Shown piece after piece: positions 1,558 through 38,990 of a DNA stretch of 41,375 nt (position 1 is its first letter; the number at the start of each line of letters is the position of its first letter). The position numbers and the translations under genes were made by a program. Location: the IMG/VR virus record IMGVR_UViG_3300043393_000053, positions 1-41,375 of that record; one strand, given 5' to 3'. The notes under the pieces were generated by a model. The model did no database searches. It was not told the origin of the DNA and worked only from the letters and a program-made list of their open reading frames with translations. The DNA is from a virus. Lineage: Duplodnaviria; Caudoviricetes.

Positions 1558-1916
1558 GCCTGTACGCCAGCCTTGCCGCAGCCCTTCTATGGGCCGGCTC
1601 TGTCGGTGGAGCATTTTGGTATGGAATCGGAGTCGGTGATGACAAAGTGACCGCTCAGATTGCCCGTGAAGACCGGCTGGCAGAGAAGGTTTCAGAGGCC
1701 ACTGCAACAGCCGCAGCGAAGGCTATCGCTGACATCAAGGTGACGAACACAACCATCCGGCAGACACTTGAAAAGGAAGTCCATGAACGCACGGTATTTC
1801 GTGACTGTAGCTCTGGCCCTGACAGTGTGCGGATGCTCAACAGTTCACCAGCCATTGCCGCAAGGCCCGTCCCCCCTGGTGCTAGCGAGTTGTCCGCTTC
1901 TGGCGCCACTCGCTGA
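1554..1916 (+). CDS. Inner-membrane spanin (Rz-like)
   Basis: N-terminal TM helix, helical body, position after endolysin, GTG start overlapping the stop. Confidence 0.75.
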   Translation: MSLYASLAAALLWAGSVGGAFWYGIGVGDDKVTAQIAREDRLAEKVSEATATAAAKAIADIKVTNTTIRQTLEKEVHERTVFRDCSSGPDSVRMLNSSPAIAARPVPPGASELSASGATR

Positions 1917-2007
1917 CGAAACCTTTGGGGGGTGGGTTTTATGGGCGCAGTACGCGGCCGGTGTGTACGGTGAATGCCTCACTGCAATCGGGATCGTGAA
2001 ACGCTGA
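1783..2007 (+). CDS. Outer-membrane lipoprotein spanin (Rz1-like)
   Basis: Overlaps the Rz-like gene in another frame; lipobox-like LTVCGC; Pro-rich. Confidence 0.75.
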   Translation: MNARYFVTVALALTVCGCSTVHQPLPQGPSPLVLASCPLLAPLADETFGGWVLWAQYAAGVYGECLTAIGIVKR

Positions 2008-2382
2008 CTCGTTGATCCGGTCAGATTCATGACGCTCTTTGCGCGACAGCATGCGCGGCCACAGTTCGGCGACGCGAGCGAGAACCGCAGTGCGCCCCTC
2101 TAGCGCCGCCACCGGCTCACTGTTGATCGCCACAGCGAACTGATCTGAGCGCACCCGCCGAATGCCGCGCTGCGCCGGGATGCTGGCGCTGATCGTAGTC
2201 GATCCATACCGCGTGGTGACTATGATGCTCACCCACTCTTCGCCCACTGCCGGGTCAGCCTGGCGTTCTGGCAGGGCAACACGTCGCGCAAGATCAGCCG
2301 CAAAGTGCGCAGCCATCGCCTCGTGATAGGCAGGCGGCATCACCTTGCGGCGTTTGCGGTAGTGCTGAAAATTCGAGCGCAT
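1939..2382 (-). CDS. Hypothetical protein immediately left of the cassette array
   Basis: 147-aa ORF, last gene of the leftward arm; no recognisable motif. Confidence 0.55.
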   Translation of the reverse strand: MRSNFQHYRKRRKVMPPAYHEAMAAHFAADLARRVALPERQADPAVGEEWVSIIVTTRYGSTTISASIPAQRGIRRVRSDQFAVAINSEPVAALEGRTAVLARVAELWPRMLSRKERHESDRINESAFHDPDCSEAFTVHTGRVLRP

Positions 2383-2393
2383 AGTTTTGGAAG

Positions 2394-2419
2394 TAGGCGT
2401 ATTGCCTAGTTAGCCGGCT
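2394..2419 (+). other. Left junction of the array (attI/attG-like G|TTAGCC site)
   Basis: GTTAGCCGGCT (2409-2419) is the exact reverse complement of AGCCGGCTAAC at attC1 R''; no attC hairpin upstream; preceded by inverted repeat TAGGC-N5-GCCTA. Confidence 0.7.
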
Positions 2420-2858
2420 CGTAGTCCTGGACCACTTCGTCTCTCAGGGCGTCAATCGCATACTGCGGCACCACGTATCCAGCCGCGCGCAATTGCTCAA
2501 GCCGGTCGGCGCAGTCGGTCGGGCTTGCATCGTTGAACGAGTCGCCGTCGAAAGCGAGGCCAATCGGCCGCAGCGGGATCAAGTGCAGCGAGGCCATGTG
2601 CACGCGGTTGTGCCAGAAGGCCGCGAACCCAAACACGATGCGAGCGCCCAACTCGTGCCAACGGCTTGGGTACACCATGCGCCGCTCGGTGCGGTTGTAT
2701 GTGCCGCCAAAACTCGGCAGGCGCATTACCGGCACGTCAGGTATAGGCGGCACGCGGCGGCGGCTACCGGCAACGTGCGTTGCCCATCCGCCGCCAACAT
2801 CGGCATACACGTACACGTCGCAGCGCCAATTCATGCTGCTCCATCTGCAATAACTCAT
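2406..2858 (-). CDS. Cassette 1 hypothetical protein
   Basis: 150-aa ORF filling the cassette; stop codon lies just outside the crossover G. Confidence 0.8.
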   Translation of the reverse strand: MSYCRWSSMNWRCDVYVYADVGGGWATHVAGSRRRVPPIPDVPVMRLPSFGGTYNRTERRMVYPSRWHELGARIVFGFAAFWHNRVHMASLHLIPLRPIGLAFDGDSFNDASPTDCADRLEQLRAAGYVVPQYAIDALRDEVVQDYEPAN

Positions 2859-2892
2859 GCTCTCGCCCTTACCTTTGTCGCTTCCATCAGCC

Positions 2893-2946
2893 GGCTAACC
2901 CCGTTTTCGAGCGGACTGAGTACAGCCGCTCAAAACAACGTTAGCC
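2893..2946 (+). repeat. attC-like site 1 (54 bp)
   Basis: GGCTAAC...TTT(C)GAGCGG(A)CTG/CAGCCGCTCAAA...GTTAGCC; two extrahelical bases (G and T on the bottom strand). Confidence 0.92.
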
Positions 2947-2981
2947 AGACACCAAATACCTGCATGCCTGGCGCCGTAGAG

Positions 2982-3374
2982 TTAAGCCGTGTGGGTGCCT
3001 TCCACACCACGAGCCATACGCGCGCGAGTGCGGCGCTGCAAGGCGGCTTGCGCTCGCTCCATGCACGTCAGCGCTTCGGCGTTGTCGGCGCTGGCATAGG
3101 GTCCGGCTTGGAAGCCACGCATGCGGTCGCACAGAATCGCCAGCAGGGCCTCGTGCGTTACGCCGTTCACGCCCACCTCGTTGATCGGCCCGTTCTGAAA
3201 CAAGATCAGGCAGGTGTTGGGGTCTTGGTCGTCGGGGTCCGATGGGTTCGTCGTGTTGTCAAACCCGGAAATCAGGTATGCGTGGTTCGCGTTGCCGCTG
3301 CCGGGCTCATCCATCACGCGCACGGCCAGCGTGTCGTTTGCGGGGTTCACTTTGTGGTCGTCGAGGTATCGCAT
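2982..3374 (-). CDS. tad1: Cassette 2: Tad1-family anti-Thoeris/anti-CBASS nucleotide sponge
   Basis: PGSGNANHAY...FQNGP...GV..EALLAILCDRMRGFQAGPYAS.DNA.AL...RR...R..RGVEGT follows the recalled Tad1 sequence pattern over the full length. Confidence 0.85.
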   Translation of the reverse strand: MRYLDDHKVNPANDTLAVRVMDEPGSGNANHAYLISGFDNTTNPSDPDDQDPNTCLILFQNGPINEVGVNGVTHEALLAILCDRMRGFQAGPYASADNAEALTCMERAQAALQRRTRARMARGVEGTHTA

Positions 3375-3408
3375 CGCTATCCTTCTGTGTGCCAGCGTCA
3401 CGGGTGCT

Positions 3409-3504
3409 GGCTAACCCTTCCATCGAGCCGAAAACCCCGGCTTACGGGTGGTCCATCTGTCACGTCTGCACGGCCGGGTTTTCGGCTCATGTCAAACGTT
3501 AGCC
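3409..3504 (+). repeat. attC-like site 2 (96 bp)
   Basis: GGCTAAC-CCTTC-CAT(C)GAGCCGAAAACC...GGTTTTCGGCTCATG-TCAAAC-GTTAGCC. Confidence 0.92.
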
Positions 3505-3514
3505 AGACACAAAC

Positions 3515-3793
3515 TCACGGCGCGTTCCGCATGTCATGGCTCATCGCGGTGCTGCCGCAGCGCGAACAAGTTGTGCTCCATGCGCAGCCGTCTTCGCTCT
3601 CCCACGGTTCGCCGTCCCACTTGTGCTCGCACGGGCCGCCCGTGCCGCACGCGCAGTAGCACGCGAACGGCTTGGCTGTCGTGCGCAGGGTTTGCAATGG
3701 CACTCCCCACGCATCGGCCATCTTCTGCAAATGCTCCTGCACCTCCGCATTGCGGCGGGCGCGCAGGGCCGCGAAGTCGGGCGCTGCATCCAT
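3515..3793 (-). CDS. Cassette 3, second gene: Cys/His-rich putative zinc-binding protein
   Basis: CYCAC, CEH and CSRC motifs; starts 2 nt after the acb2 stop. Confidence 0.7.
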   Translation of the reverse strand: MDAAPDFAALRARRNAEVQEHLQKMADAWGVPLQTLRTTAKPFACYCACGTGGPCEHKWDGEPWESEDGCAWSTTCSRCGSTAMSHDMRNAP

Positions 3794-3795
3794 GC

Positions 3796-4053
3796 TCAAA
3801 AGGTGGTGGGCTGTGCAATGCCGCGAATCACGGCCATGAAGCCGCGTTGCAGGTCGGTCGAGCCAATGCTGATCCAGCGTTGGTCGAGCGAAAGGCCAGG
3901 TGCAGGCCCATCCGGCGAGCCGCCGACTGCGCGCAGCTTGGCGACGTAGGCGCCGCACTGCTCGGCCAGCGACTTGCCTTCGTTCATCAGCTCCACCTCG
4001 GCCTCGCTCAGTTGACGGTAACCTGTGATCTTCGGTTGAATCATCGTTTCCAT
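3796..4053 (-). CDS. acb2: Cassette 3: Acb2-family anti-CBASS cyclic-oligonucleotide sponge
   Basis: KITGYRQLSEAEVELMNEGK...RWISIGSTDLQRGFMAVIRGIAQPTTF follows the recalled Acb2 pattern (KIKGYRDLS..EI..MN..K...RWLAIG.TD.Q.G.MA.IRAIAQP..F). Confidence 0.9.
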   Translation of the reverse strand: METMIQPKITGYRQLSEAEVELMNEGKSLAEQCGAYVAKLRAVGGSPDGPAPGLSLDQRWISIGSTDLQRGFMAVIRGIAQPTTF

Positions 4054-4091
4054 GTCATTCCTTCCGGTTGTGCGCCAGCGTTCCGGGTGCT

Positions 4092-4186
4092 GGCTAACCC
4101 TTCCATCGAGCCGAAAACCCCGGCTTACGGGTGGTTCAAATCAACGCCTGAGCGGCCGGGTTTTCGGCTCATGTCAAACGTTATGC
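4092..4186 (+). repeat. attC-like site 3 (95 bp)
   Basis: Arms identical to site 2, different central loop; R' GTTATGC. Confidence 0.92.
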
Positions 4187-4357
4187 GCCTTGCTCGTCAT
4201 CGAAGATTGGGAGCCATTCGCGGCGCTTCACATCCCAATGCTGCGTAGCAAACATCGTCGCTAGCGAATAGAGCGGGTGGTGCGGCTCGCACACGACCCA
4301 TTCGCCGTCATCCTTTTGGTGCCGAACGGTGCCGGCTGCGTGTTCTTCGTTCTTCAA
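4181..4357 (-). CDS. Cassette 4, second gene: 58-aa hypothetical protein (not in ORF track)
   Basis: AGGAG RBS, TTG start overlapping the upstream TGA, stop TAA inside R' of attC3. Confidence 0.6.
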   Translation of the reverse strand: MKNEEHAAGTVRHQKDDGEWVVCEPHHPLYSLATMFATQHWDVKRREWLPIFDDEQGA

Positions 4358-5067
4358 GTTGCACTCCTAGCTATAGAAAGCAGCAGGTCGCGGAAAGGCT
4401 CCGGCGTGGCGTTCCTGATCGCAGTCTTGTTCTTCCCGCCCACCATCGCCACCACGCCGATGCGCCTGGCTTTCTCGTAGCCGTAGCGGTCGATCATCCA
4501 TTGCGGCAGGCGCTGCTCAGTCTTGCCCCACTTCAGGTTGGGCAAGTCTTCGCGCGCAATGCGGTTCGCGTACAACCATGTCGCCTTACCACTTGCGTGT
4601 CCGTAGTGGCCTTGGTACACACAGCACGTCCACCCGCCCAGGCCCGCCGACACCCAGCCGCCACTACGCGGGGGCTTCTCGATGCCATGTGCGTCCCACG
4701 CCTTGCTGTCGGCCGGGTGTTCCAGCACGCCACCGAACGCATCCACGCACGCAAGCGCCGCGCGGAAGCACCCGCCATCGTCGCCCAGCTTGTACTGGTG
4801 CGGCTTGCGCGTGCTGCCGTGCCAGAACCTGCCCCAACGCTGGCAGGGTGGGTGCGCCACCACAGGGTGCGGCCCCGCGTACTTCCTGGCGTCGCGCGCT
4901 TCGTCCCACGGCTCAACTCCTGGCACGCCCACATAGCAGCCCTTCGGCTCCACGTAGAGGGCCGCCACGGTTGCTCGCACATCCACCGGCCGCACAACCC
5001 CTCGGTCGAGCGGACAATGTCCGGCGTTCACCGCTGGCGCATCTGCAAAAAGGTCGTAGCCGGTCAT
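4354..5067 (-). CDS. Cassette 4: DNA cytosine-5 methyltransferase-like protein
   Basis: AHPPCQ (motif IV-like) and VLEHP (motif VI-like); motif I degenerate; start codon lies inside attC4. Confidence 0.6.
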   Translation of the reverse strand: MTGYDLFADAPAVNAGHCPLDRGVVRPVDVRATVAALYVEPKGCYVGVPGVEPWDEARDARKYAGPHPVVAHPPCQRWGRFWHGSTRKPHQYKLGDDGGCFRAALACVDAFGGVLEHPADSKAWDAHGIEKPPRSGGWVSAGLGGWTCCVYQGHYGHASGKATWLYANRIAREDLPNLKWGKTEQRLPQWMIDRYGYEKARRIGVVAMVGGKNKTAIRNATPEPFRDLLLSIARSAT

Positions 5068-5091
5068 TGCCTCTCACCTCAAACGTTAGGC
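4992..5091 (+). repeat. attC-like site 4 (100 bp)
   Basis: GCACAAC-CCCTC-GGT(C)GAGCGGACAATG...CATTGCCTCTCACC-TCAAAC-GTTAGGC. Confidence 0.88.
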
Positions 5092-5388
5092 CCCACGAGC
5101 AATACATGCCTCGCAAGAACAGAATGGTTTGAACCACTTTGTCTCCGTACTTGCTCGCTCCGCATTCTCTTCGCGCATCGCTATCTGACCGTCAATGAAG
5201 CCACGCCGAAATTCATGGTCAAGGGTGGATTGGTTATGAATCCGAAGCCTGTCAACTTCATCCAGTGCAGCAAGTAGCCCGTCGCAAATCGTGCGCTCAG
5301 GCATACCGTGGCTGTGAAGTGCAGCGCCTTCCTCTGCCAGTTCGCGCAGGTATTCGGCGCGCTCCGGCTCCAGGCCTAACCCTTCCAT
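5086..5388 (-). CDS. Cassette 5 hypothetical protein
   Basis: ORF starts within attC5 (ATG at 5388 or 5418) and stops at TAA in R' of attC4. Confidence 0.65.
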   Translation of the reverse strand: MEGLGLEPERAEYLRELAEEGAALHSHGMPERTICDGLLAALDEVDRLRIHNQSTLDHEFRRGFIDGQIAMREENAERASTETKWFKPFCSCEACIARGA

Positions 5389-5740
5389 CGAGCGGGACTG
5401 CCTTCGGCATCCCCTCATTTCGGACGTTAGGCGTCTTGCTGCGGATCATGGAGTCAACAAATGAAGTAACTTGACGCACGCATTCATCACTAAATTGCGT
5501 ACCTATGCGAATGTCGCCAACATGATCGCGCCATTTATCGCCAAAAAGTTGAAATGCCACACCCCTTTCGGCTTCAAAGCATCGCTTTAGGAGTTTGTAT
5601 TTCAAGACATTTTTGTCACGCCAGCCATGAAAAACAAAATTGACTTCTTTTGAGAAGTATTGCCCTTCATTCTCAAAAAATAGCCCGAACGATTGGCCGT
5701 CTCCACGTCTTGCAAGTTCCATGATGTTAAGAAGTTTCAT
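5297..5740 (-). CDS. Cassette 6 hypothetical protein (AT-rich; reads through attC5)
   Basis: ORF MKLLNIMELARR...; no stop before the crossover, so it continues PNV... into cassette 5. Confidence 0.65.
   Translation of the reverse strand: MKLLNIMELARRGDGQSFGLFFENEGQYFSKEVNFVFHGWRDKNVLKYKLLKRCFEAERGVAFQLFGDKWRDHVGDIRIGTQFSDECVRQVTSFVDSMIRSKTPNVRNEGMPKAVPLDGRVRPGAGARRIPARTGRGRRCTSQPRYA
5374..5432 (+). repeat. attC-like site 5 (59 bp)
   Basis: GCCTAAC-CCTTC-CAT(C)GAGCGGGACTGCC TTC GGCATCCCCTCATT-TCGGAC-GTTAGGC. Confidence 0.92.
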
Positions 5741-5766
5741 TCTTGGCCTTTTGTGTTTCGTCAGGC

Positions 5767-5823
5767 GCCTAACCTGCAATTCAAGCCGACGCCTGACGGC
5801 GCGGCTTAATTGCAACTTTAGGC
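5767..5823 (+). repeat. attC-like site 6 (57 bp), crossover G replaced by T
   Basis: GCCTAAC...AATT(C)AAGCCG(A)CGCC/GGCGCGGCTTAATT...TTTAGGC; arms closely resemble classical 59-base elements. Confidence 0.92.
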
Positions 5824-6273
5824 CGGGAGCGGCACCGTGGCGCCCGTGAAAGTGTCAATCAGCGGCTTGCCAGCAGCACGCACTTCGTCCACCGTCATGA
5901 ACTTGGCGCAGGCCCCTTCTGGCAAACCGTCATCCACCAGCAGGCCATAGCGCACGGTCTGCACTTCCAGCGTGGTGCTGCATCGGCAGCCCAGGCTCCA
6001 GCCCCAGTTCTGTTCGCCGCAGGCATCGCACTTCGTGCCCTGGCACACCATGCCAATTGCTTCGCCAGCACGGACGCGGCACTTCGCATTACCGAAGTCC
6101 CATCCTTGCACAGCCTGCGGCGGTTCTGTCGGGCGCGGCTCACCAGCCATTGCGGCTTCGGCGGCTTGCTCAAATACGTTTGCGGCGTCCTGCGCGGCCC
6201 GGCCTAACCCCTTGTTGCAGCCGAGCCCCAACGGCGGGATACTTGCGTTGTCAGGCTGTGAATCTGTAGTCAT
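5818..6273 (-). CDS. Cassette 7 Cys-rich hypothetical protein
   Basis: AGGAG RBS and ATG inside the attC7 loop; stop TAA in R' of attC6. Confidence 0.75.
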   Translation of the reverse strand: MTTDSQPDNASIPPLGLGCNKGLGRAAQDAANVFEQAAEAAMAGEPRPTEPPQAVQGWDFGNAKCRVRAGEAIGMVCQGTKCDACGEQNWGWSLGCRCSTTLEVQTVRYGLLVDDGLPEGACAKFMTVDEVRAAGKPLIDTFTGATVPLPA

Positions 6274-6321
6274 CTTTCTTCTCCTTGCGCCGTTGGTGCC
6301 GGCTGAACTCGAACGTTCTAC
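6202..6321 (+). repeat. attC-like site 7 (120 bp)
   Basis: GCCTAAC-CCCTT-GTT(G)CAGCCG...CCAACGGCG/CGCCGTTGG...CGGCTGAAC-TCGAAC-GTTCTAC. Confidence 0.88.
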
Positions 6322-6667
6322 GGCAATTCAAGCACTTCAGCCCAGCTCCCGCCTTGTTCCACTGCATCGGCCATTCGGTAGCGAGTCGGCGCATCGATGT
6401 CCTTCCACAGGCAACAGTCAGCGGCTTCGCGGTGAGCTGAATACTTCTCGGCACATACCGGGCATGCTGCCGAGTCGGAATCGGCCGCTTTCCCTTGGCA
6501 GCACTCTTCGGCCTCGGTTTCCTCGTCTTCGTCGAATCGTTCGCCACAGACAGGGCAGCCCAGTTGATGAGTTCTCTGGCACTCTTTCGCTTGCCGTCTG
6601 GCACACCAGCGTCTCGTGCTCTGGCGTTCGCAATGAGGCCGCTAAGGTTGAGCGGTGAAAGTTGCAT
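6318..6667 (-). pseudogene. Cassette 8: frameshifted Cys-rich (CPVC x2) protein
   Basis: N-terminal frame MQLSPLNL...ELINW; the shifted frame continues GCPVCGERFDEDEETEAEECC...CPVCAEKY...DCCLWKD...VLELP* and has no start of its own; one G appears missing at about 6559-6561. Confidence 0.65.
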
Positions 6668-6692
6668 GTTCTCTCCGTGCCTTCGTTGTGCC

Positions 6693-6778
6693 GTCGAACC
6701 AGTTAATCGAGCGGACCTCGGGCGGCAGGGCGCATCTGCACCGGTACTGCCTCGGCCCGCTCACCCTAGACGTTGGGC
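6693..6778 (+). repeat. attC-like site 8 (86 bp)
   Basis: GTCGAAC-CAGTT-AAT(C)GAGCGGACC...GGCCCGCTCACC-CTAGAC-GTTGGGC. Confidence 0.85.
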
Positions 6779-6788
6779 AGACGTGTTG

Positions 6789-7100
6789 TCACTTGCTCGC
6801 CATAGCGGCAGCAGCGCGAACGATGGCGTGTCGGGTGGCCTCGTTGGCGTCGTTGCCGAGCATGATCTCTTCCCACGCACCATCCCCCGCCGCGGTCACG
6901 TAGTCGGCACCGTTCCAGCGCAGTTCAATGCGGCATTTCACCGCCAGCCGCAGCGCGTCACCGTCGTCTGTCAGTGGATTCCACAACCTGTGGTCTCCAT
7001 CATCGGCAAAGAGCCAATGTGTGTTCGACGAACGTTTCCACTCGCCAATCTTGTGGCCCACAGCCTTCGCCGCAGCCTCAAGAAGTTCTTTGTCTGTCAT
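6789..7100 (-). CDS. Cassette 9: conserved phage protein, NinX/ABA-sandwich-like
   Basis: MTDKELLEAAAKA...WNPLTDDGDALRLAV...ATRHAIVRAAA pattern. Confidence 0.7.
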   Translation of the reverse strand: MTDKELLEAAAKAVGHKIGEWKRSSNTHWLFADDGDHRLWNPLTDDGDALRLAVKCRIELRWNGADYVTAAGDGAWEEIMLGNDANEATRHAIVRAAAAMASK

Positions 7101-7133
7101 TGTTTGACCCTCGTTCATCGAATCGGTAGCGCT

Positions 7134-7222
7134 GCCCAACCCTTCGCTCAGCCGGACCTCGGGCAGCGTGGCGCTTTTCGCCATTCGCCAAAGCCTCGGC
7201 CCGGCTAGCTCAAACGTTGTGC
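7134..7222 (+). repeat. attC-like site 9 (89 bp)
   Basis: GCCCAAC-CCTTC-GCT(C)AGCCGG(A)CC...GGCCCGGCTAGC-TCAAAC-GTTGTGC. Confidence 0.88.
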
Positions 7223-7235
7223 AGCTTGCGACCTG

Positions 7236-7382
7236 TCAGCATCCCGCACCGATCAACTCGGCGGCGAGTTTGCGACAGGCATCCTCCCAATATGAGGCGC
7301 GGCCCGCGTTGATGCTGCCGGCCCGTGCCCGCTCCAGCCAAAACATGCACTGGTACGTCAGGTGGTGCGCCTTTTTGCTCAT
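7236..7382 (-). CDS. Cassette 10, gene 3: 48-aa hypothetical protein
   Basis: ATGA-coupled to the upstream gene; GGAG RBS. Confidence 0.55.
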   Translation of the reverse strand: MSKKAHHLTYQCMFWLERARAGSINAGRASYWEDACRKLAAELIGAGC

Positions 7383-7552
7383 GGTTGTGGCTCCTTGATC
7401 TTGAGGATCGCGGCCTCGACCGCCTCGGTGCCCACGCGCGCCACCTTGGCCGCAACCTCGGGGTACGTCCGCATTTGCAGCCGTGCCGTGCGCCGCAAAT
7501 CGGGCGGCAGCGCGGGCCGCCCCATCCGCTTGGTCGTTAGGACGGTAGCCAT
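7379..7552 (-). CDS. Cassette 10, gene 2: 57-aa putative DNA-binding protein (ribbon-helix-helix-like; not in ORF track)
   Basis: MATVLTTKRMGRPALPPDLRRTARLQMRTYPEVAAKVARVGTEAVEAAILKIKEPQP; GRP followed by a strand-helix-helix pattern; TGATG coupling. Confidence 0.65.
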   Translation of the reverse strand: MATVLTTKRMGRPALPPDLRRTARLQMRTYPEVAAKVARVGTEAVEAAILKIKEPQP

Positions 7553-7737
7553 CACTCGGTTTCCACGACCTCAAAAGAGCCAATCGGCCCCATATCGCCG
7601 TCCGCAAAGAGTTCGGCCTCTTCGCGGCTCTGAAACGTGCAAGCCAACTCTGTGTCTGTCCAGCAGCGGTCCCCGGCCGGACTGGCAAACCAGAATCCAT
7701 TGTCTTCGGCCGACTTGATTTGGTACTTAGCGCTCAT
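7552..7737 (-). CDS. Cassette 10, gene 1: 61-aa acidic protein
   Basis: AGGAG RBS downstream of the internal promoter. Confidence 0.7.
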   Translation of the reverse strand: MSAKYQIKSAEDNGFWFASPAGDRCWTDTELACTFQSREEAELFADGDMGPIGSFEVVETE

Positions 7738-7781
7738 CTTGCTCTCCTGTTGCGGGCCGCACCTTGCTGCCCATGAGCATT

Positions 7782-7830
7782 AATGTACTCCGCAAATGTC
7801 GGTGCGTCAAACAGTTTATGTACTCCGCAA
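7782..7830 (-). promoter_or_regulatory. Sigma70-like promoter inside cassette 10 with a 13-bp direct repeat
   Basis: TTGACG-17-TACATT on the minus strand (7810-7782); ATGTACTCCGCAA at 7783-7795 and 7818-7830. Confidence 0.7.
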
Positions 7831-7859
7831 TTGTAAAGTTCAGCGTTTCGGAACCGGCT

Positions 7860-7917
7860 GCACAACTGGTTTATCGAGCGGACCGCTTTCAGCGGTCCGC
7901 TCATTGCCAATTTAGGC
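7860..7917 (+). repeat. attC-like site 10 (58 bp), crossover G replaced by T
   Basis: GCACAAC-TGGTT-TAT(C)GAGCGGACCGCT TTC AGCGGTCCGCTCATT-GCCAA-TTTAGGC. Confidence 0.88.
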
Positions 7918-7927
7918 CTCCAGAAAC

Positions 7928-8065
7928 TCACTTTTTGTTGCTGCCCGGGCGTTTGTAGCCCGTCGCATCACGGTGGCAATCCGCGATTTTCGGCTGTGAA
8001 ATCATGCGCGAATAGTCTGCGCGGCGGCGCTCCAAATTGCGCGCCAGTTTTTTGCTTCTCTTCAT
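7928..8065 (-). CDS. Cassette 11: 45-aa basic protein
   Basis: GAGG RBS; MKRSKKLARNLERRR... Confidence 0.6.
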   Translation of the reverse strand: MKRSKKLARNLERRRADYSRMISQPKIADCHRDATGYKRPGSNKK

Positions 8066-8089
8066 TTGCTTTCCTCTCTGTTCACCAAG

Positions 8090-8190
8090 GCCTAACCATT
8101 CGGTCGAGGCGAAATCCCACGGCAAGCGGCCGTGTTGCGCTTCGGTAAGGCCGCGCCGCCGTGGGCTTCGCCTCACCTCAAACGTTAGGG
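8090..8190 (+). repeat. attC-like site 11 (101 bp)
   Basis: GCCTAAC-CATTC-GGT(C)GAGGCGAA...CCCACGGC/GCCGTGGG...TTCGCCTCACC-TCAAAC-GTTAGGG. Confidence 0.9.
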
Positions 8191-8403
8191 CTCTTTCACG
8201 CATGCCATCGCTGCGTCGTATCGCGCCAGGTCGGCCTGCATCTGCGCCTTCGCAATCTTGATGATTTGCGAACTCGCTTTGTAGTAGTTCTTACTTGGTC
8301 CGCTCAGCAGTCCGCTTTCCAGCAGCGCGATCACGGCGCCCCAGGTGTTAAGGTTTGCGTTGGCAGTTGCGGCCTCTTTGGCTGCGGCTTCTTTGGTGCT
8401 CAT
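8185..8403 (-). CDS. Cassette 12 hypothetical helical protein
   Basis: 72-aa ORF, stop TAA in R' of attC11. Confidence 0.7.
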   Translation of the reverse strand: MSTKEAAAKEAATANANLNTWGAVIALLESGLLSGPSKNYYKASSQIIKIAKAQMQADLARYDAAMACVKEP

Positions 8404-8428
8404 ACATTCCCTCGGTTTTCAACCAGCG

Positions 8429-8529
8429 CCCTAACTCTTCGGTCGAGAGGACCCACCCCGGCGTCGCTGTTCGGTTCTTCTGTCATCGTTGTGCCCGCCG
8501 TGGCGGTCCTCTCACCTCAAACGTTCGGC
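8429..8529 (+). repeat. attC-like site 12 (101 bp)
   Basis: CCCTAAC-TCTTC-GGT(C)GAGAGGACC...GGTCCTCTCACC-TCAAAC-GTTCGGC. Confidence 0.9.
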
Positions 8530-8879
8530 CCCAATGCATCGCGCAAGCACTCCATGCGCTCTTGCATCATGCCGTCGTGTGCTTTCGGCAGCACGGTCCC
8601 GTCCCACGCCACCAGCGCACGCAGAGCGGCGTGGGGCAGATCGCGGCTGCGGAGGCTCTTGTATGCCCCGTCCAGCAGTTCGCGTAGGCGCTTGCACTCG
8701 GCCTCGGCATCCTGTTTCTGCTGCACCACATGCCCGAACGCTTCTTTCGCGCCTTCCTCGGCTAACTTGAGCGCCTCGATCTCGTCGCACAAAGCCGAGA
8801 CTTCGCGCATGCGAATCGCCGGCCACCCGTCAGGAGTGTGGTCAACCTCAAAGACGCGCATCTGCTGTACCAAATCCAT
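8517..8879 (-). CDS. Cassette 13 coiled-coil hypothetical protein
   Basis: GGAG RBS; ends PNV* using a stop supplied by attC12. Confidence 0.7.
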   Translation of the reverse strand: MDLVQQMRVFEVDHTPDGWPAIRMREVSALCDEIEALKLAEEGAKEAFGHVVQQKQDAEAECKRLRELLDGAYKSLRSRDLPHAALRALVAWDGTVLPKAHDGMMQERMECLRDALGPNV

Positions 8880-8898
8880 TCTGTCGCTCCGTGTTGAG

Positions 8899-8986
8899 GT
8901 CGAACCAGTTAATCGAGCGGACCGCCACCGGCAGTCAGCGTTTCGTGTCGGTTTGAGCAGCGGCCCGCTCATTGCCAACGTTAGGG
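8899..8986 (+). repeat. attC-like site 13 (88 bp)
   Basis: GTCGAAC-CAGTT-AAT(C)GAGCGG(A)CCGC...GCGGCCCGCTCATT-GCCAAC-GTTAGGG. Confidence 0.9.
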
Positions 8987-8999
8987 CGACACAAAATGC

Positions 9000-9497
9000 C
9001 TACGCGATCTGCACCCGAGCAATTGCCACCAGCCGAGGATCGGCCCGCGTCAAAACGTCGAGCAACAGGCGCTTCTCTTCGAGGTACATGACCGCGAACT
9101 TCGGGTCGTGCAGAACGATGCCGGCGGTGTTGCTTATGATGTCGGCGACTTTGATGGTTTGCACCCAGGCCCACGCCTTTGAAAGCCGTTCACGCGAAGC
9201 GGCCTTTCGCTCGGCGCGGTTGCCCGCCTCCATGTCGCTCAACTGCTCCACCGCATATGCCACGACGCCGCCAAACTTGGCTTCGAGCGTGTCCAGTGTC
9301 ACGACCTGATCTTCCGTGCAATCGTGTAGCCAGCACACTTGCGCCATCACGTCGTAACACAGTTGCTCGGGGCAGGCAGTCATGGCAATGCCAACCACTT
9401 CGGCCAGGTGGTCGGTATACGGGTTGCCCGTGTACTTGCGCCGCTAGTCCTTGTGCACCTCGCGGGCGAACATCATTGCTTCAAATGCATTCATCAT
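9000..9497 (-). pseudogene. Cassette 14: HD-domain protein (RelA/SpoT hydrolase, Mesh1-like) with an in-frame TAG
   Basis: FAREVHKD*RRKYTGNPYTDH...WLHDCTED...IKVADIISN; amber codon at 9444-9446 where the family has Q. Confidence 0.8.
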
Positions 9498-9517
9498 TTA
9501 GGTTCTCCACCAGTGCG

Positions 9518-9537
9518 CCCTAACCCTTCCATCGAGG
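9518..9537 (+). repeat. Truncated attC-like site 14 (R'' and L'' only)
   Basis: CCCTAAC-CCTTC-CATCGAG matches the start of sites 2, 3 and 5; no correctly spaced L'/R' follows. Confidence 0.7.
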
Positions 9538-9611
9538 TCAGGACGCCCAACTGCGTGCCGCTTTCGTTCATTGGATTTGCAGCGATTTGTGCTGTTCAAT
9601 GTGGGTACGGC

Positions 9612-10490
9612 TCATGGCTCAACCGGCGTTGCTTGCGGAGCGCTCATAGCGGCCATTGCTGCATCGCGCTTTGCAATTTCATCGGCGGTTTTCTTGAGCG
9701 ATGTTCGGAGAGCGCTGTGCGGCTTCAGGATCGACCAGAGGGCGAGCTTTTCATCGTTGTCCTCTAAACTTGCCTCCTCAAACGCACCGACATCGTCACC
9801 CTCGTTGAACTTTTGCAAAGCAGCACGCGCCGCATTCCGAACAACTATTGCTCGTGCGGGCGTCAGGCCAAAATTCTTCGGCTGATTCAACGGGTCATGG
9901 TCATCAATGTCGTTGATCGCCTTGCCTTCCATCTCTTCGGCGGTGTATTGAGCTGCGATTTCCGGGAATGCACTGCGCAGGGCCTGGGCAGACGCGCACT
10001 TTGCAATCTGGCCTTTTGGGCGCTTTGTCCACATCGCATTGGGAGCGATAGACTTCTCTTTCCCACCCTTCACAGCGTAGTTCTCAGTCCAATATTCTTT
10101 GGCCGTGAAGTCGCAGATTTCACCAGATGCGAGCCGGCGCTTTGCAGTGACGCGGCACCACTCGGGATAGGTGATTTCCTGCCCGCCGATAACCGTAACC
10201 ACGTCGGGACCGAACTCGGGTTCCGTGATCCCGGCGAACTGTTGCGAGCGCGACGCCTGGATGCGGTACAGGTTGATGCCTGGCATGATGACATCGCGCA
10301 TCGATCCTGAATTGCGGTCCCACATGGGCACGATGTGCACCGGCTTTTGCATCGGGTCAAGCCCGGCTGCGCGGCAGTACTCAATCACCAAGCCGATGGA
10401 TTGCAGCGATGCGCCGGGGTACAGCGATGTTTGAAGTACGGCCAGCATGGTTTCGTTGTTCGGCTGGAGTTGATGCACTACGGCGTTCAT
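9612..10490 (-). CDS. bet: Bet/RecT-family single-strand annealing recombinase
   Basis: GLDPMQKPVHIVPM...PGINLYRIQA...EPEFGP...MWTKRPKGQIAKCASAQALRSAFPE. Confidence 0.88.
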   Translation of the reverse strand: MNAVVHQLQPNNETMLAVLQTSLYPGASLQSIGLVIEYCRAAGLDPMQKPVHIVPMWDRNSGSMRDVIMPGINLYRIQASRSQQFAGITEPEFGPDVVTVIGGQEITYPEWCRVTAKRRLASGEICDFTAKEYWTENYAVKGGKEKSIAPNAMWTKRPKGQIAKCASAQALRSAFPEIAAQYTAEEMEGKAINDIDDHDPLNQPKNFGLTPARAIVVRNAARAALQKFNEGDDVGAFEEASLEDNDEKLALWSILKPHSALRTSLKKTADEIAKRDAAMAAMSAPQATPVEP

Positions 10491-10504
10491 AGGTTTCCTT
10501 TAGG

Positions 10505-10870
10505 CAAAGATTCAGCAGGGTGACAGGTGGTCTGCCACTTTCTCCACACGGGCAGCGCTTCTGTCTGCTCCGTGCCAAGTTCCTTTGAGGGGTGCTTCAT
10601 CGCTTTCCTGCTGCTCAGTCACATTCAGGAATTCAGCTTGTTCCGGTCGAACACCATCGCCGGGGCGGCTTGCTTCGCTGGGTGAGCGACAGCCGGTGTT
10701 TGCTTCGGTGCGCCCATGCAGGCACTTGACTCGTTCACCACAGCCCGACCGAAGGCTAGAACGCAAAAAGCCCCTTGCGGCTGCGTTCTGTTGTGGTGTC
10801 AACATGCCTTCCGGCGTGAACGCATGAGCAAGGGGCCTCATGACATTACCAACTGACACCACAGTGGATA
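10505..10870 (-). ncRNA. Candidate structured RNA/leader upstream of bet (c4-antisense-like 5' part)
   Basis: About 380 nt without a credible ORF; long hairpin 10770-10836 followed by U5; 10-nt complement pair 10792-10801/10854-10863; further stems. Confidence 0.45.
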
Positions 10871-10876
10871 CAAGAA

Positions 10877-11071
10877 TCATACCGCAATACCTCTTTGTTG
10901 CAAGGCTTTTTTGAGATCGGCAGTGCGCACAATGTGCGTCTTCAGTCCACGTTTCAAATTTAGGCGAGCAATGTTTTTTGCTTCGGCTTTCAGCATTGAC
11001 AAAGGGCCTGCGACCCATGCGCCGCTTGGCTGTTGCACAAGCACGATGTACCGTGTTCGCGGTTCGTTCAT
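10877..11071 (-). CDS. Hypothetical protein
   Basis: Abuts the upstream gene in the leftward operon. Confidence 0.55.
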   Translation of the reverse strand: MNEPRTRYIVLVQQPSGAWVAGPLSMLKAEAKNIARLNLKRGLKTHIVRTADLKKALQQRGIAV

Positions 11072-11341
11072 TCAGCAATCTTTAGCACAAACGCCATTGA
11101 ACAGCGAAAGGCTCGGCATCTTCTCGTCACCTGCCCAGCCCTTGTTTGCATGCGCCACACCGTCGCAAAACGCTTCGAGTTGCAAAGCTGCGGCAGAGTC
11201 AATCAAGTGTGCGCGGAGTTCGTCTCGGCTTTGCAGGTACGGGGCAACGCCCATGGAATGTGCTGTGGCAGCATCTTTTGCCAACTTGTCAGCAAAGGCC
11301 ATCGTCATGTGGACAAACTCGTCAGCAGTGATTTTGCTCAT
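11072..11341 (-). CDS. Hypothetical protein
   Basis: ATGA-coupled; GGAG RBS. Confidence 0.6.
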   Translation of the reverse strand: MSKITADEFVHMTMAFADKLAKDAATAHSMGVAPYLQSRDELRAHLIDSAAALQLEAFCDGVAHANKGWAGDEKMPSLSLFNGVCAKDC

Positions 11342-11499
11342 GCCAGCCACTCCCAGATTTTCGGAGCCCATAGAAGGCCCATGAACATGCCAACCGACAC
11401 GCCCCAGCACAGCCCATCAACAAATCGATCGGAAGACCGTACAGGCCCCTCCATGGGGATTGCGTAGTCGGCGCCTGTTTCGAGGAATGAGCCTTTCAT
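11338..11499 (-). CDS. Small membrane protein
   Basis: C-terminal TM helix; ATGA-coupled. Confidence 0.6.
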   Translation of the reverse strand: MKGSFLETGADYAIPMEGPVRSSDRFVDGLCWGVSVGMFMGLLWAPKIWEWLA

Positions 11500-11651
11500 T
11501 CGAGCACCATCGTGATAACAGCAGCCCAGAAGGCGACGCCAGCCAGGGTGACGAACCAAAACACCAGGTTGTCGATTGGTGTTGCAGAGCGCATATCGGC
11601 TGGGCAGTCGCGGCCTTGCCGGCATTCCCCATGACACGGAGGGCAGCTCAT
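11496..11651 (-). CDS. Small membrane protein with CPPCHGECRQGRDCP motif (not in ORF track)
   Basis: Cys cluster common in proteobacterial phage early genes plus a TM helix. Confidence 0.65.
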   Translation of the reverse strand: MSCPPCHGECRQGRDCPADMRSATPIDNLVFWFVTLAGVAFWAAVITMVLE

Positions 11652-11652
11652 T

Positions 11653-11817
11653 TCAGTGCCCATCACGCATCACCTCCGGGGGAAAGTCGGGGCCATCGTC
11701 GCGCTCACGCTCAATCGGTTCATCTTCGATGATGCGAATCGAAACCTGCTTTGCAATGGCTCGAAACTCCGGGTCAAGGTTTGGGTCTTCGGCGAGCATT
11801 TCCCAAAAGCTGACCAT
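11653..11817 (-). CDS. 54-aa acidic hypothetical protein (not in ORF track)
   Basis: MVSFWEMLAEDPNLDPEFRAIAK...; TGATG coupling. Confidence 0.55.
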   Translation of the reverse strand: MVSFWEMLAEDPNLDPEFRAIAKQVSIRIIEDEPIERERDDGPDFPPEVMRDGH

Positions 11818-12062
11818 CACAGCCCCCCGAAATCTGTCATTGCGGCGCCAGTGAATCGCCGTGACCGGTGCGAGCCATGGGCGCGGGCCAACAGCGTTTT
11901 GGCTGCATCAACTTGACGCTGGCCGAAATTGGCGGCGTTCTCGCGATCGGCGACTTGCTGCGCCAGGTGTTCGGCATGGCGGGCACGGCTCAGCGCAAGC
12001 ATGTCGCGGTTTGCCTGTTGAATTTCATGAAGTTGCGAAGGCGTGAGGCTGGTGTAATTCAC
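11817..12062 (-). CDS. First gene of the leftward early operon, hypothetical
   Basis: GGAG RBS, GTG start downstream of the PL-like promoter. Confidence 0.65.
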   Translation of the reverse strand: MNYTSLTPSQLHEIQQANRDMLALSRARHAEHLAQQVADRENAANFGQRQVDAAKTLLARAHGSHRSRRFTGAAMTDFGGL

Positions 12063-12102
12063 TTTAGCTCCAGGGCGCCGAGACGTTCAGCGCATGGAAG
12101 GA

Positions 12103-12131
12103 ACTATAGGCATTGCCGATTGCATTGTCAA
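12103..12131 (-). promoter_or_regulatory. PL-like sigma70 promoter
   Basis: TTGACA-17-TATAGT. Confidence 0.85.
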
Positions 12132-12208
12132 CGGCATTGCCTATTATATTTTCGACTGGCAGCACAAATAATTAGCAGTGCGCTTGCGGTAAGCATCGGC
12201 AATGCCTA
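12107..12208. promoter_or_regulatory. Three 13-bp palindromic operators
   Basis: TAGGCATTGCCGA (12107-12119), ACGGCATTGCCTA (12131-12143), TCGGCAATGCCTA (12196-12208), overlapping both promoters. Confidence 0.85.
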
Positions 12209-12212
12209 TCAT
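12184..12212 (+). promoter_or_regulatory. PR-like sigma70 promoter (probably a leaderless cro mRNA)
   Basis: TTGCGG-17-TATCAT with ATG 7 nt downstream. Confidence 0.7.
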
Positions 12213-12219
12213 GTCGAGT

Positions 12220-12477
12220 ATGAACCCGATCACTACCGCGGCATCGATCCTTGGCAGCCAGGAATTGCTGGCGCGCTGCCTGGGAGTCAAGCAGCCAACC
12301 ATCAGCGAGTGGGCGCGCCAAGAGCGCCCGATCCCAATTGAGCGGTGCGTCGACATTGAGCGAGCGACCGGGAGGAAGGTCATGCGCTGGCACTTGCGTC
12401 CCAATGACTGGCATCGCATCTGGCCGGAGCTGGTCGGCACCGAAGATGCTCCGAAGGTCGAAGAGAAGGCGGTGTGA
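12220..12477 (+). CDS. cro: Cro/YdaS-like HTH regulator
   Basis: GSQELLARCLGVKQPTISEW...IERATG..V....LRP.DW..IWPEL. Confidence 0.85.
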   Translation: MNPITTAASILGSQELLARCLGVKQPTISEWARQERPIPIERCVDIERATGRKVMRWHLRPNDWHRIWPELVGTEDAPKVEEKAV

Positions 12478-37581: not shown

Positions 37582-38406
37582 ATGCCCGTCCCTTCACTTA
37601 TCACCGACCTCTCGACTGTAGCCGCAAGCAACAGCCCTGACGGTGCGAGCGAATCCCCAAAGCTAGGGGATGACTACATCCGCACCTATGGGGCATTCAT
37701 TGCTCAGATTCGGGACATGCTGAATGGCACGTCAAATAGCGGGACGATCAAGAACCCGGTCTTCAGTGGCACCAGCACAGGAACGATCACCATTGCTGGC
37801 GCTACCCTGCCCAGCCCGACGATCAGTGGCACGCCAGTTATCAGCAGCGCGGCAGTTACGTGGAGCGGGAACCCGACGCATAGCGGAAATCACACTTGGA
37901 GTGGGACTCAGACGTTCAATGGAGCAGCGACATTCGGTGGAGCCGTAACATTTTCTTCATTACCGCGCGGGTTTGCCAATGTTGCAGGTAAAGCAACTAC
38001 TACAAGCCGCGCAAGTAATACTTCATTCACAAGCGATCCTGATTTATACGTTACCCTGACGCCCGGTTCATATGCCCTTGATTTGTACATTCCTTTATGG
38101 TCTGCATCCTCTGGGACAGGTGGGTTCAAGTGGCAATTTGCTTTCAGCGGAACAACTAGCGCACCAACTTCTTTCGGAATTACTGGCGCTCTAAATAATA
38201 ATGCAGTTGCCACGAACATAGTGGTTACTAGTGCAGGGTATACAAACCTATCAACTTCAGCATACTTAGACTATTTGTCTTTCCGAGGAATAATTGTTGT
38301 CGCAACAGGTGGCCTTCTCGAATTCCAGTGGGGGCAATTTTCGTCAAGTGTTGGGGCAACAAATGTTGGTGCGGGTGCTTGGCTAGTTGCAACTAAGTTG
38401 ACCTAA
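37582..38406 (+). CDS. Short tail fibre / receptor-binding protein 1
   Basis: ITDLSTVAASNSP...GDDYIR anchor; S/T/G-rich shaft. Confidence 0.7.
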   Translation: MPVPSLITDLSTVAASNSPDGASESPKLGDDYIRTYGAFIAQIRDMLNGTSNSGTIKNPVFSGTSTGTITIAGATLPSPTISGTPVISSAAVTWSGNPTHSGNHTWSGTQTFNGAATFGGAVTFSSLPRGFANVAGKATTTSRASNTSFTSDPDLYVTLTPGSYALDLYIPLWSASSGTGGFKWQFAFSGTTSAPTSFGITGALNNNAVATNIVVTSAGYTNLSTSAYLDYLSFRGIIVVATGGLLEFQWGQFSSSVGATNVGAGAWLVATKLT

Positions 38407-38882
38407 AAATGTTGCTCAATCATCAAATGCAAAGCAGCATCTTTGACCCCAACCCTAGGAATAAGCCCCAGACGCACGGCATATTCGCCCGCATGGATGG
38501 CGATGCTAGGGGCTATGAGAAAAGCCAATGCTCGGCCATCTCGATAGCAGATGATGTTGGGGTTGGTAGAAGCCTCGGCGCGCTCGCAATATTGAGGGCC
38601 AAATACTCTGCCATAGCCTGTGATTGCCCCAACGGTCAGTGCAGCGCTGAACCCATGCACTTGGTCAGTCTCGAAGGTTTCGGCCGCGTAGACACTCTGG
38701 CGCCCGTAGCTGTTGCGGTAGGTGCCGAGAGTCAAGCCGCTGTCAAAGCGAGCATAGATGCCGGGGTTGATGCCGTTCAGCCCACCGTGTTGATGGGCAG
38801 ACACCAAATGCAGGCCGACCGTTTGGGCGCTCGCTGCAAGGTGGAAGAAAAGCGCGAAGAGTGCGAAGATACGGGTAACCAT
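38403..38882 (-). CDS. Exported beta-barrel-like protein (PagP-like moron)
   Basis: Signal peptide; GLHLVSAH...NGINPGIY...GTYRNSYGRQSVY...GAITGY; C-terminal Phe; opposite strand. Confidence 0.65.
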   Translation of the reverse strand: MVTRIFALFALFFHLAASAQTVGLHLVSAHQHGGLNGINPGIYARFDSGLTLGTYRNSYGRQSVYAAETFETDQVHGFSAALTVGAITGYGRVFGPQYCERAEASTNPNIICYRDGRALAFLIAPSIAIHAGEYAVRLGLIPRVGVKDAALHLMIEQHF

Positions 38883-38990
38883 GTTGGACTCCAATCAGTT
38901 CAGTGTGGCCAGAAGCGGGGCGGTGTTGATAGCACCTGTCCCGCTTCGTCATTGTTGCGCCAGATGGCACAGAAAAGCAAGGGGGCCTAA

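What the first reader, a model, noticed from the sequence alone, without database searches (positions are those of the whole stretch)
2409..9524. Each R'' box pairs with the previous crossover site: footprint of cassettes inserted as circular units
Seen, previous R' versus reverse complement of next R'': GTTAGCCGGCT (11/11); GTTAGCCAG (9/9, twice); GTTATGCG/GTTGTGCG; GTTAGGCC (8/8); GTTAGGCGTCT/GTTAGGCGCCT; tTTAGGCCGGG/GTTAGGCCGGG; GTTCTACGGCA/GTTCGACGGCA; GTTGGGCAG (9/9); GTTGTGCAGC (10/10); tTTAGGCCT/GTTAGGCCT; GTTAGGGCTCT/GTTAGGGCGCT; GTTCGGCCCCAA/GTTCGACCTCAA; GTTAGGGCG (9/9). All 14 cassettes obey this rule, while many sites mismatch their own R' (site 7 GCCTAAC/GTTCTAC; site 9 GCCCAAC/GTTGTGC). 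Established: this is expected when an attC is complete only in the excised circle and crossover occurs between G and TT. Terminators or REP-like repeats would not show it.
Basis: seen in the sequence. Interest (0 to 1): 0.88.

Follow-up and report, generated by a model that had tools for sequence, protein, structure and literature searches.

The report
Backwards integron cassettes carry phage counter-defences
A complete phage genome keeps fourteen integron-type gene cassettes, two encoding relatives of the anti-immunity proteins Acb2 and Tad1, whose genes all face the opposite way to bacterial cassette genes, so they are likely read from the phage's early promoter and likely swapped by an integron enzyme that this phage does not itself encode.

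Summary
Observation confirmed. Across the 14 cassettes R' matches the next R'' at 90 of 112 positions. Own-site matches are 52 of 104; shuffles average 56.6, best 80 of 200,000. The rule is ordinary for integrons: it beats own-site pairing in 121 of 146 bacterial intervals.

The unusual part lies elsewhere. The window is a complete 41-kb phage with no integrase. The attC bulge makes + the top strand, yet every cassette gene is on the - strand, downstream of bet in the early operon. Other phages agree: 128 inverted, 7 normal, 23 unclear; bacteria 67 normal, 9 inverted, 53 unclear. Five of the 7 normal phage cassettes bring their own promoter (post-hoc pattern).

Some phages carry a true IntI and attI at the array's end, with relatives of four of this window's cassette genes. 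Cargo here includes Acb2 and a Tad1 relative; both cassettes recur as units in other phages. Two minor contigs in one run show other sequence starting at the array's first crossover.

Ten literature searches found no description. This scan reported the inverted layout before on other DNA; anti-defence cargo was not among those notes.

The parts
1939..2382 (-). 147-aa ORF of no known family, at the position where intI lies in complete phage integrons
   Evidence: 4 homologs besides itself; no PHROG; position compared
2390..2415 (+). Docking site of the array: crossover G|TT at 2409|2410 with no attC in front; does not match the phage attI consensus
   Evidence: two minor contigs diverge after 2413; score -8.9, no better than 55% of 552 GTT sites
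2410..2940 (+). Cassette 1; gene 2406-2858 on -, stop codon supplied by the docking site; attC1 2893-2946
   Evidence: phrog_13573
2941..3498 (+). Cassette 2; Tad1-like gene 2982-3374 on -; attC2 3409-3504
   Evidence: PDB 8kbb E 6.4e-13; same unit in L446
3499..4180 (+). Cassette 3; two genes on -: Acb2 3796-4053 and Cys-rich 92-aa gene 3515-3793; attC3 4092-4186
   Evidence: PF24729 51.5 bits over cut-off 27; PDB 8h2j E 3e-11; same two-gene unit in L368, L369, L370, L373, L379 (three aligned)
4181..5085 (+). Cassette 4; gene 4354-5067 on - (possible C5-methyltransferase-like), with SD and ATG inside attC4 4992-5091; small ORF 4181-4357
   Evidence: phrog_12600; Atlas lead only, PF00145 on 12% of one cluster at rank 29
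5086..5426 (+). Cassette 5; gene ending at 5086 on - (stop in R'); attC5 5374-5432
5427..5817 (+). Cassette 6; low-GC gene from about 5740 on - that reads through attC5 to 5297; attC6 5767-5823 (aadA1-like body, R' reads TTT)
5818..6315 (+). Cassette 7; gene 5818-6273 on -, SD and ATG inside attC7 6202-6321
6316..6772 (+). Cassette 8; gene 6251-6667 on -, running into attC7; attC8 6693-6778
6773..7216 (+). Cassette 9; gene 6789-7100 on -; attC9 7134-7222
   Evidence: phrog_5086
7217..7911 (+). Cassette 10; own sigma70-like promoter (7810-7782 on -) and three genes 7552-7737, 7379-7552, 7236-7382 on -; attC10 7860-7917 (R' reads TTT)
   Evidence: 80% homolog of the first gene in L535
7912..8184 (+). 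Cassette 11; 45-aa ORF 7928-8065 on -; attC11 8090-8190
8185..8523 (+). Cassette 12; gene 8185-8403 on - (stop in R'); attC12 8429-8529
8524..8980 (+). Cassette 13; gene 8517-8879 on - (stop in attC12 spacer); attC13 8899-8986
8981..9537 (+). Cassette 14 (distal end); MESH1-like HD hydrolase gene 9000-9497 on - with one internal stop; only R'' and L'' of its attC remain
   Evidence: PDB 3nr1 E 2.2e-10 read through with X
9612..10490 (-). Bet/RecT single-strand annealing protein, directly upstream of the array in the early operon
   Evidence: TIGR01913 137.5 bits over cut-off 77
12103..12131 (-). Strong sigma70-like leftward promoter (11 of 12), the likely driver of the early operon and the array
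   Evidence: consensus match only

Best explanation
The region is an integrase-less phage integron array: 14 attC-bounded cassettes with all genes on the attC bottom strand, likely transcribed from the phage's early leftward promoter after bet and likely gained, lost and reordered by an integron integrase (IntI) supplied by a co-infecting or ancestral phage or by the host. Shown: attC anatomy, the R'/R'' rule, inverted genes, no integrase in the genome, cassettes 2 and 3 as bounded units in other phages, and complete IntI-attI-array phages with the same polarity. Inferred: IntI folds the bottom strand and cuts at G|TT. Cassettes leave as circles with the hairpin in front of their gene and insert at the 2409 site, so the newest cassette sits last in the transcript. 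Inferred: the polarity is kept by selection for expression from the early operon. Inferred: the array serves as a swappable store of early accessory and counter-defence genes (Acb2 and Tad1 are cyclic-nucleotide sponges against CBASS and Thoeris; recalled).
For: Complementarity and folding statistics. L''/L' pair at 5-7 of 7 with one unpaired base, C on + in 12 of 13 sites. The same detector puts the aadA1 attC top strand on the coding strand of R100, and finds 11 sites on + and 0 on - in 41 kb. No PF00589 or IntI match in the complete genome. Orientation: viral 128 inverted, 7 sense, 23 unclear of 158; bacterial 67 sense, 9 inverted, 53 unclear of 129; 5 of those 9 lie in two loci with phage genes. 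Own top-strand promoter in 5 of 7 sense viral cassettes and 0 of 128 inverted. 369 viral stretches encode an IntI relative; 8 of 8 tested pass TIGR02249; their cassettes are 14 inverted, 2 sense, 4 unclear. Relatives of cassette genes 2, 4 and 10 lie within 0.9 kb upstream of intI in L523, L510, L512, L535. Body travels with the R''-side cassette. Two minor contigs share the docking site and continue into other sequence after GTTAG.
Against: No recombination was observed and no read joint removes a cassette exactly (half of one run, contigs only, possibly the source sample). The docking site scores no better than random GTT sites against the phage attI consensus. Two sites lack the conserved G and the last is truncated, so part of the array may be fixed. 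attC bodies differ in 5 of 16 close pairs and 28 of 32 pairs at 80-90%, including cassettes 2 and 3 against their relatives, which plain G|TT recombination does not produce. Only 10 of 80 Acb2 loci and 1 of 51 Tad1 loci have a neighbouring attC, and 89 of 113 cargo proteins have no Pfam hit, so 'counter-defence store' rests on a minority. Viral loci were found with queries from this window and deduplicated only by exact sequence. The promoter pattern was chosen after viewing four sense cassettes.
Confidence: 0.75

Rival explanations
1. The cassettes were made and first assembled by IntI, but in this integrase-less phage they now move mainly by Bet-driven homologous recombination between similar attC arms of co-infecting phages; circles are no longer involved.
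For: bet lies directly beside the array. No IntI. attC bodies are often replaced while the R'..R'' unit stays. Such exchange keeps the R'/R'' rule. attC2 and attC3 share 70 nt at 94%.
Against: The first position has no attC body to recombine in, yet minor contigs change sequence within 4 nt of G|TT there. In close pairs the body follows the R''-side cassette 11 of 16 times against 1 of 6.
Confidence: 0.15
2. The array is a frozen relic inherited from an IntI-bearing ancestor and no longer rearranges.
For: No attI consensus at the docking site. An unrelated ORF stands at the intI position. Two TTT sites, a truncated last site and a broken last gene.
Against: 11 of 13 sites keep GTT and 10 of 13 have L boxes pairing at 6-7 of 7... 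all at 5 or more. Relatives 92-97% identical just upstream carry other sequence from the first crossover on.
Confidence: 0.07
3. A bacterial cassette array was captured whole and happens to lie backwards, or the repeats are terminators or REP-like elements.
For: Phage capture of bacterial integron segments is described (PMC9892861, passages).
Against: Capture keeps gene-to-attC polarity, but here it is reversed gene by gene. Cargo homologs are phage genes. Terminator-like sites are not enriched (8 found, 12.1 expected). REP or terminator repeats give no cross-cassette rule.
Confidence: 0.03

Closest known systems
Integron gene cassettes and attC sites (class 1 and sedentary chromosomal integrons; Nivina et al. 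2016, PMC5027507, passages read)
   Same: R''-UCS-L''(bulge)-VTS-L'-R' anatomy, conserved AAC/GTT, bottom strand folding better, R'/R'' rule as in bacterial arrays.
   Different: Genes lie on the bottom strand and face the docking site. [quoted passage not shown] No Pc-type reading; some genes start or stop inside attC.
Phage-borne CALINs and integrons (Qi et al. 2023, PMC9892861; part 2 of 7, section 3.4 and a term search read; supplements not seen)
   Same: attC clusters without integrase in phage genomes; MTase cargo suggested to counter restriction; five of six phage attC sites tested recombined with IntI1.
   Different: 17 CALINs, described as typical of bacterial arrays or mixed; the passages read do not mention gene-to-attC inversion, phage IntI at the end of an early operon, or Acb2/Tad1 cargo. 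Their gene-to-attC polarity was not re-checked here.
CALIN elements in bacteria (Cury et al. 2016, PMC4889954, passages read)
   Same: [quoted passage not shown]
   Different: Here a whole phage is the replicon. Their 'inverted integrase' group concerns intI orientation, not cassette genes. They note that the mechanism creating cassettes is unknown.
Anti-defence islands of phages (AntiDefenseFinder, PMC11370490, passages read) and integrons as anti-phage biobanks (10.1101/2024.07.02.601686, listing and start of abstract only)
   Same: Small counter-defence genes clustered in an early region; integron cassettes as stores for the phage-host conflict.
   Different: Here the store is on the phage side and built of attC cassettes.

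Membership tests
attC site / integron cassette | R'' (RYYYAAC) and R' (GTTRRRY) boxes with conserved triplet | tested here: met
   13 of 13 R'' end in AAC; 11 of 13 R' start GTT, 2 TTT
attC site / integron cassette | L''/L' pairing with one extrahelical base (G on the bottom strand), 5-nt and 5-6-nt spacers | tested here: met
   5-7 of 7 pairs in 13 of 13; unpaired base is C on + in 12 of 13
attC site / integron cassette | Bottom strand folds into a hairpin more stable than the top strand | tested here: met
   Array junctions: bottom lower in 12 of 13; circle junctions: 11 of 13
attC site / integron cassette | Cassette unit runs G|TT to G|TT and carries its attC body | tested here: met
   11 of 16 versus 1 of 6 close viral pairs, not independent; R'/R'' rule
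attC site / integron cassette | Gene coded on the attC top strand, upstream of its attC | tested here: not met
   All genes on - while top strand is +; R100 control normal
attC site / integron cassette | Recombined by IntI as a folded bottom strand | not testable with these tools
   Needs the attC x attI assay
Complete integron | intI gene | tested here: not met
   0 matches to PF00589 and to an 8-row IntI profile in the complete genome
Complete integron | attI site at the head of the array | tested here: inconclusive
   A crossover site without attC exists and takes other sequence in relatives, but does not match the 21-site phage attI profile
Complete integron | Pc promoter reading into the array from attI | tested here: not met
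   No + strand promoter-like site before 2409 in 1800-12400; strong - strand promoter at 12131
CALIN | Two or more attC sites, no intI nearby | tested here: met
Acb2 (anti-CBASS sponge) | Family profile and similarity to solved Acb2 | tested here: met
   PF24729 over cut-off; 8h2j 'p26' E 3e-11 (that p26 is Acb2 is recalled)
Acb2 (anti-CBASS sponge) | Binds cyclic nucleotides and blocks CBASS | not testable with these tools
   Needs binding and plaque assays
Tad1 (anti-Thoeris sponge) | Similarity to solved Tad1 | tested here: met
   Five sequences named Thoeris anti-defense 1, E 6e-13 to 6e-12; no Pfam hit at E 0.01
Tad1 (anti-Thoeris sponge) | Binds gcADPR and blocks Thoeris | not testable with these tools
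   Needs binding and plaque assays

The most novel reading that the evidence does not exclude
Tailed phages run their own integron network: IntI-encoding phages make and trade reverse-polarity cassettes out of phage early genes, including anti-CBASS, anti-Thoeris and anti-restriction genes, and integrase-less phages such as this one plug into the pool, mirroring the bacterial use of integrons as anti-phage stores. Because the same genes occur both as plain phage genes and as cassettes, and cassettes 2 and 3 share both ends around different cargo, these arrays may be a place where cassette genesis can be watched.
Probability: 0.45. Interest if true: 0.88.

Novelty: new variant of a known kind. 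Interest (0 to 1): 0.72.

Why it matters
Integrons are seen as bacterial devices whose cassette genes face away from attI, and they were recently described as stores of anti-phage genes. A phage-side version with reversed genes, its own IntI lineages and counter-defence cargo would give phages a site-specific way to swap anti-immunity genes. It would supply a mined list of small unknown early genes to screen for new anti-defence functions (89 of 113 cargo proteins have no Pfam hit). It would also open the question of how cassettes are made, since cassette and non-cassette forms of one gene (Acb2: 10 of 80 loci with attC) can be compared directly.

Tried and rejected
BLAST of attC6 against plasmids: no match, so R100 was fetched as the control instead. 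BLAST of the array against GenBank phages: 11 records, all short single-gene matches, no array. ORF 1939-2382 as a hidden recombinase or conserved partner: 4 homologs, no family, no loci in viral or metagenome scans; rejected as a system part. Docking site as a typical attI: not supported. Read joints (four, sides 20-43 nt, between attC repeats) were not taken as excisions; they probably come from other organisms' attC sites. The phage's own contig stops at 2415, where cassette 1 and cassettes 2/3 diverge; its continuation was not among the records read, so this is a hint only. No RNA holder listed. Look-alike stretches among earlier findings: none; words with Acb2 and Tad1: none. IntI tree: only the quick tree finished; phage IntIs with inverted cassettes need at least 2-3 label changes, so one origin is not shown. 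Literature: ten searches found no description of inverted phage cassettes. I found no paper stating the R'/R'' cross-cassette rule outright; that it is established is recalled and backed by the bacterial control. Subscription papers are not in the library.
Full report
OBSERVATION. With the invariant GTT left out, R' of one site matches the reverse complement of the next R'' at 90 of 112 positions (4-11). It matches its own site's R'' at 52 of 104. 200,000 shuffled pairings gave mean 56.6, sd 4.6, maximum 80. In-silico circle junctions fold better on the bottom strand than array junctions in 12 of 13, with one tie, and 0 of 100,000 permutations reached the summed energy; this repeats the same signal in energy terms. 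There are 13 complete sites of 54-120 bp, a half site at 9518-9537, and a first R' at 2409 with no attC before it. Two R' boxes read TTT.

THE RULE IS ORDINARY. I wrote an attC detector that finds 11 of the 13 sites and none on the other strand of the 41 kb. I ran it on loci fetched with a generic attC motif from bacterial genomes (2 of 64 parts scanned, flanks for 80 loci) and viral contigs. Cross-cassette pairing beats own-site pairing in 121 of 146 bacterial intervals (6 the other way) and 148 of 191 viral ones (14 the other way). So the rule identifies real cassettes but is no novelty. It is also symmetric, so it gives no polarity and does not prove circles: exchange inside attC bodies would keep it. 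A direct test of the cut point is which neighbour the attC body stays with. In viral pairs with a flank at least 90% identical and a different other flank, the body is the same in 11 of 16 when the R''-side cassette is shared and in 1 of 6 when the R'-side cassette is shared; random bodies match in 19 of 1500. Six of the 11 come from four related phages. At 80-90% identity the body is kept in only 4 of 32, so bodies are also replaced over time.

CONTEXT. The window is a whole virus record with direct terminal repeats, 100% complete. It has terminase, portal, capsid, tail spike, endolysin, a Cro-like regulator and replication genes, and no tyrosine recombinase or IntI. The array lies between bet (9612-10490, -) and the convergent lysis genes. 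A promoter matching 11 of 12 consensus bases points leftward at 12131-12103.

POLARITY. L'' carries the unpaired base on the + strand (C in 12 of 13), which makes + the attC top strand; Nivina et al. place the extrahelical G on the recombining bottom strand (PMC5027507, passages). In R100 the detector puts the aadA1 attC top strand on the coding strand. In the window every cassette gene is on -. Using a codon model to pick the best ORF per cassette: viral loci 128 inverted, 7 sense, 23 unclear (33 of 191 intervals dropped for weak R match, mostly missed sites); bacterial loci 67 sense, 9 inverted, 53 unclear (17 of 146 dropped). Five of the 9 bacterial exceptions are in L268 and L290, which carry a phage integrase and SSB, or a phage methyltransferase and cassettes shared with a viral contig. 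Five of the 7 sense viral cassettes have a promoter-like TTG-N20-TAnnnT in their first 130 nt, against 0 of 128 inverted; I chose that pattern after viewing four of them. The first gene of cassette 10, which has its own promoter here, has an 80% homolog in L535 in a promoter-bearing cassette of normal polarity. This fits selection for expression (inferred): promoterless genes must run with the early operon, self-promoted ones need not. Consequences seen in the sequence: genes 4 and 7 have SD and ATG inside their attC (18 of 128 viral inverted cassettes, 0 of 67 bacterial sense ones), and genes 1, 6, 8 and 13 take their stop from the neighbour. Viral loci are not independent samples: they were found with window-derived queries and deduplicated by exact sequence only.

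THE ENZYME. Eight of eight tested pass TIGR02249. Of 58 non-class-1 loci with at least 1.5 kb upstream, 24 gave a first-cassette boundary near the intI start, most with a shared attI-like motif. Their cassettes are 14 inverted, 2 sense, 4 unclear. In the nine loci mapped (output partly cut), intI sits in or at the end of a run of small co-directional phage genes, often next to lysis genes. Relatives of window cassette genes 2 (L523), 4 (L510, L512) and 10 (L535) lie just upstream of intI. The window has the same layout with an unrelated 147-aa ORF where intI would be. Its docking site does not fit the attI profile. In run X1 (labelled freshwater metagenome, possibly the source, half read) two minor contigs match the DNA before 2409 (15 differences in 197 nt; 1 in 40) and continue into other sequence after GTTAG. 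That is what another first cassette at the same site looks like; no exact cassette deletion was seen.

CARGO. Cassette 3 encodes an Acb2-family protein and cassette 2 a Tad1 relative; their sponge function is recalled, not tested. Cassette 14 is a broken MESH1-like hydrolase; cassette 4 is at best a methyltransferase lead. The two-gene Acb2 cassette recurs at 77-79% identity in L368, L369, L370, L373, L379 and the Tad1 cassette at 82% in L446; the four pairs aligned share the R' and R'' boxes and differ in neighbours and attC bodies. Ten of 80 Acb2 loci and 1 of 51 Tad1 loci have an adjacent attC, all inverted. I scanned 113 cargo proteins: 111 of 128, leaving out 16 from Acb2/Tad1-selected loci and one duplicate, plus two first-cassette genes. 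Nine are DNA methyltransferases, one Lar, one NADAR, one sub-threshold Acb2/Tad1; 89 have no Pfam hit.

MECHANISM. Shown: anatomy, unit, polarity, missing integrase, recurrence of units, IntI-bearing phages of the same plan. Inferred: IntI from a co-infecting or ancestral phage or the host excises bottom-strand circles and inserts them at G|TT; the hairpin travels in front of its gene; the early promoter reads the array toward the docking site, so the newest cassette is last and the decayed cassette 14 is oldest. Main rival: Bet-driven exchange between attC arms now does the shuffling (0.15); both may act.

KNOWN AND NEW. Phage CALINs are known and five of six tested sites work with IntI1 (PMC9892861); the passages read do not describe inversion. 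Cassette genesis is stated as unknown (PMC4889954). Ten searches found no account of inverted phage cassettes; subscription papers and supplements were not seen. This scan noted the inverted layout before in other genomes (unchecked notes, not counted as support). What this window adds: Acb2 and Tad1 cargo, the own-promoter exceptions, and the alternative sequence at the docking site in a natural sample.

Noticed in passing
window 2940-2956 vs 3498-3514 and 3386-3455 vs 4069-4138: Cassettes 2 (Tad1-like) and 3 (Acb2) share both ends: the same R' start, a leader hairpin before the ribosome site and a near-identical attC, around different cargo. This looks like one scaffold reloaded with another gene.
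   Followed up: partly
window 5374-5432; L538 5519-5836: Gene 5 begins MEGLGLEPERAE inside attC5, like the attC-encoded leader of an L538 cassette gene; its short attC body may have replaced a longer one that held the start.
   Followed up: no
window 7782-7835: The promoter of cassette 10 overlaps two direct copies of a 13-nt motif, and the cassette has a small basic 57-aa gene (7379-7552): possible self-regulated module.
   Followed up: no
window 2390-2410: The docking site holds a short inverted repeat (TAGGC-N5-GCCTA) ending at the crossover; it could be a collapsed cassette remnant.
   Followed up: no
L499-L578 IntI tree: In the quick tree, nine phage IntIs with inverted cassettes fall in one branch (SH-aLRT 97) with class 1 IntI1 and three betaproteobacterial IntIs, so phage IntIs are among the near relatives of IntI1. 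The careful tree did not finish.
   Followed up: partly
L118, L128, L383, L370, L114, L126, L094, L112, L101: Many integrase-less phage arrays keep a clear attI-like head (G-Y-C-T/G-A, six bases, GTT), unlike the window.
   Followed up: partly
L105: One phage locus has cassette arrays on both strands, one with a Tad1 relative (62%).
   Followed up: no
L512 9141-10130, L538 9127-10419: These phages carry an ordinary phage integrase right after intI, so some complete phage integrons are on temperate phages.
   Followed up: partly
window 12109-12156: Two tandem 24-nt copies overlap the leftward promoter beside the Cro-like gene; no CI repressor or integrase was found, so the phage seems to lack a lysogeny module.
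   Followed up: no
window 38403-38894 (-): PagP-like lipid A acylation gene (phrog_3600, E 9e-13) inverted among the tail genes.
   Followed up: no
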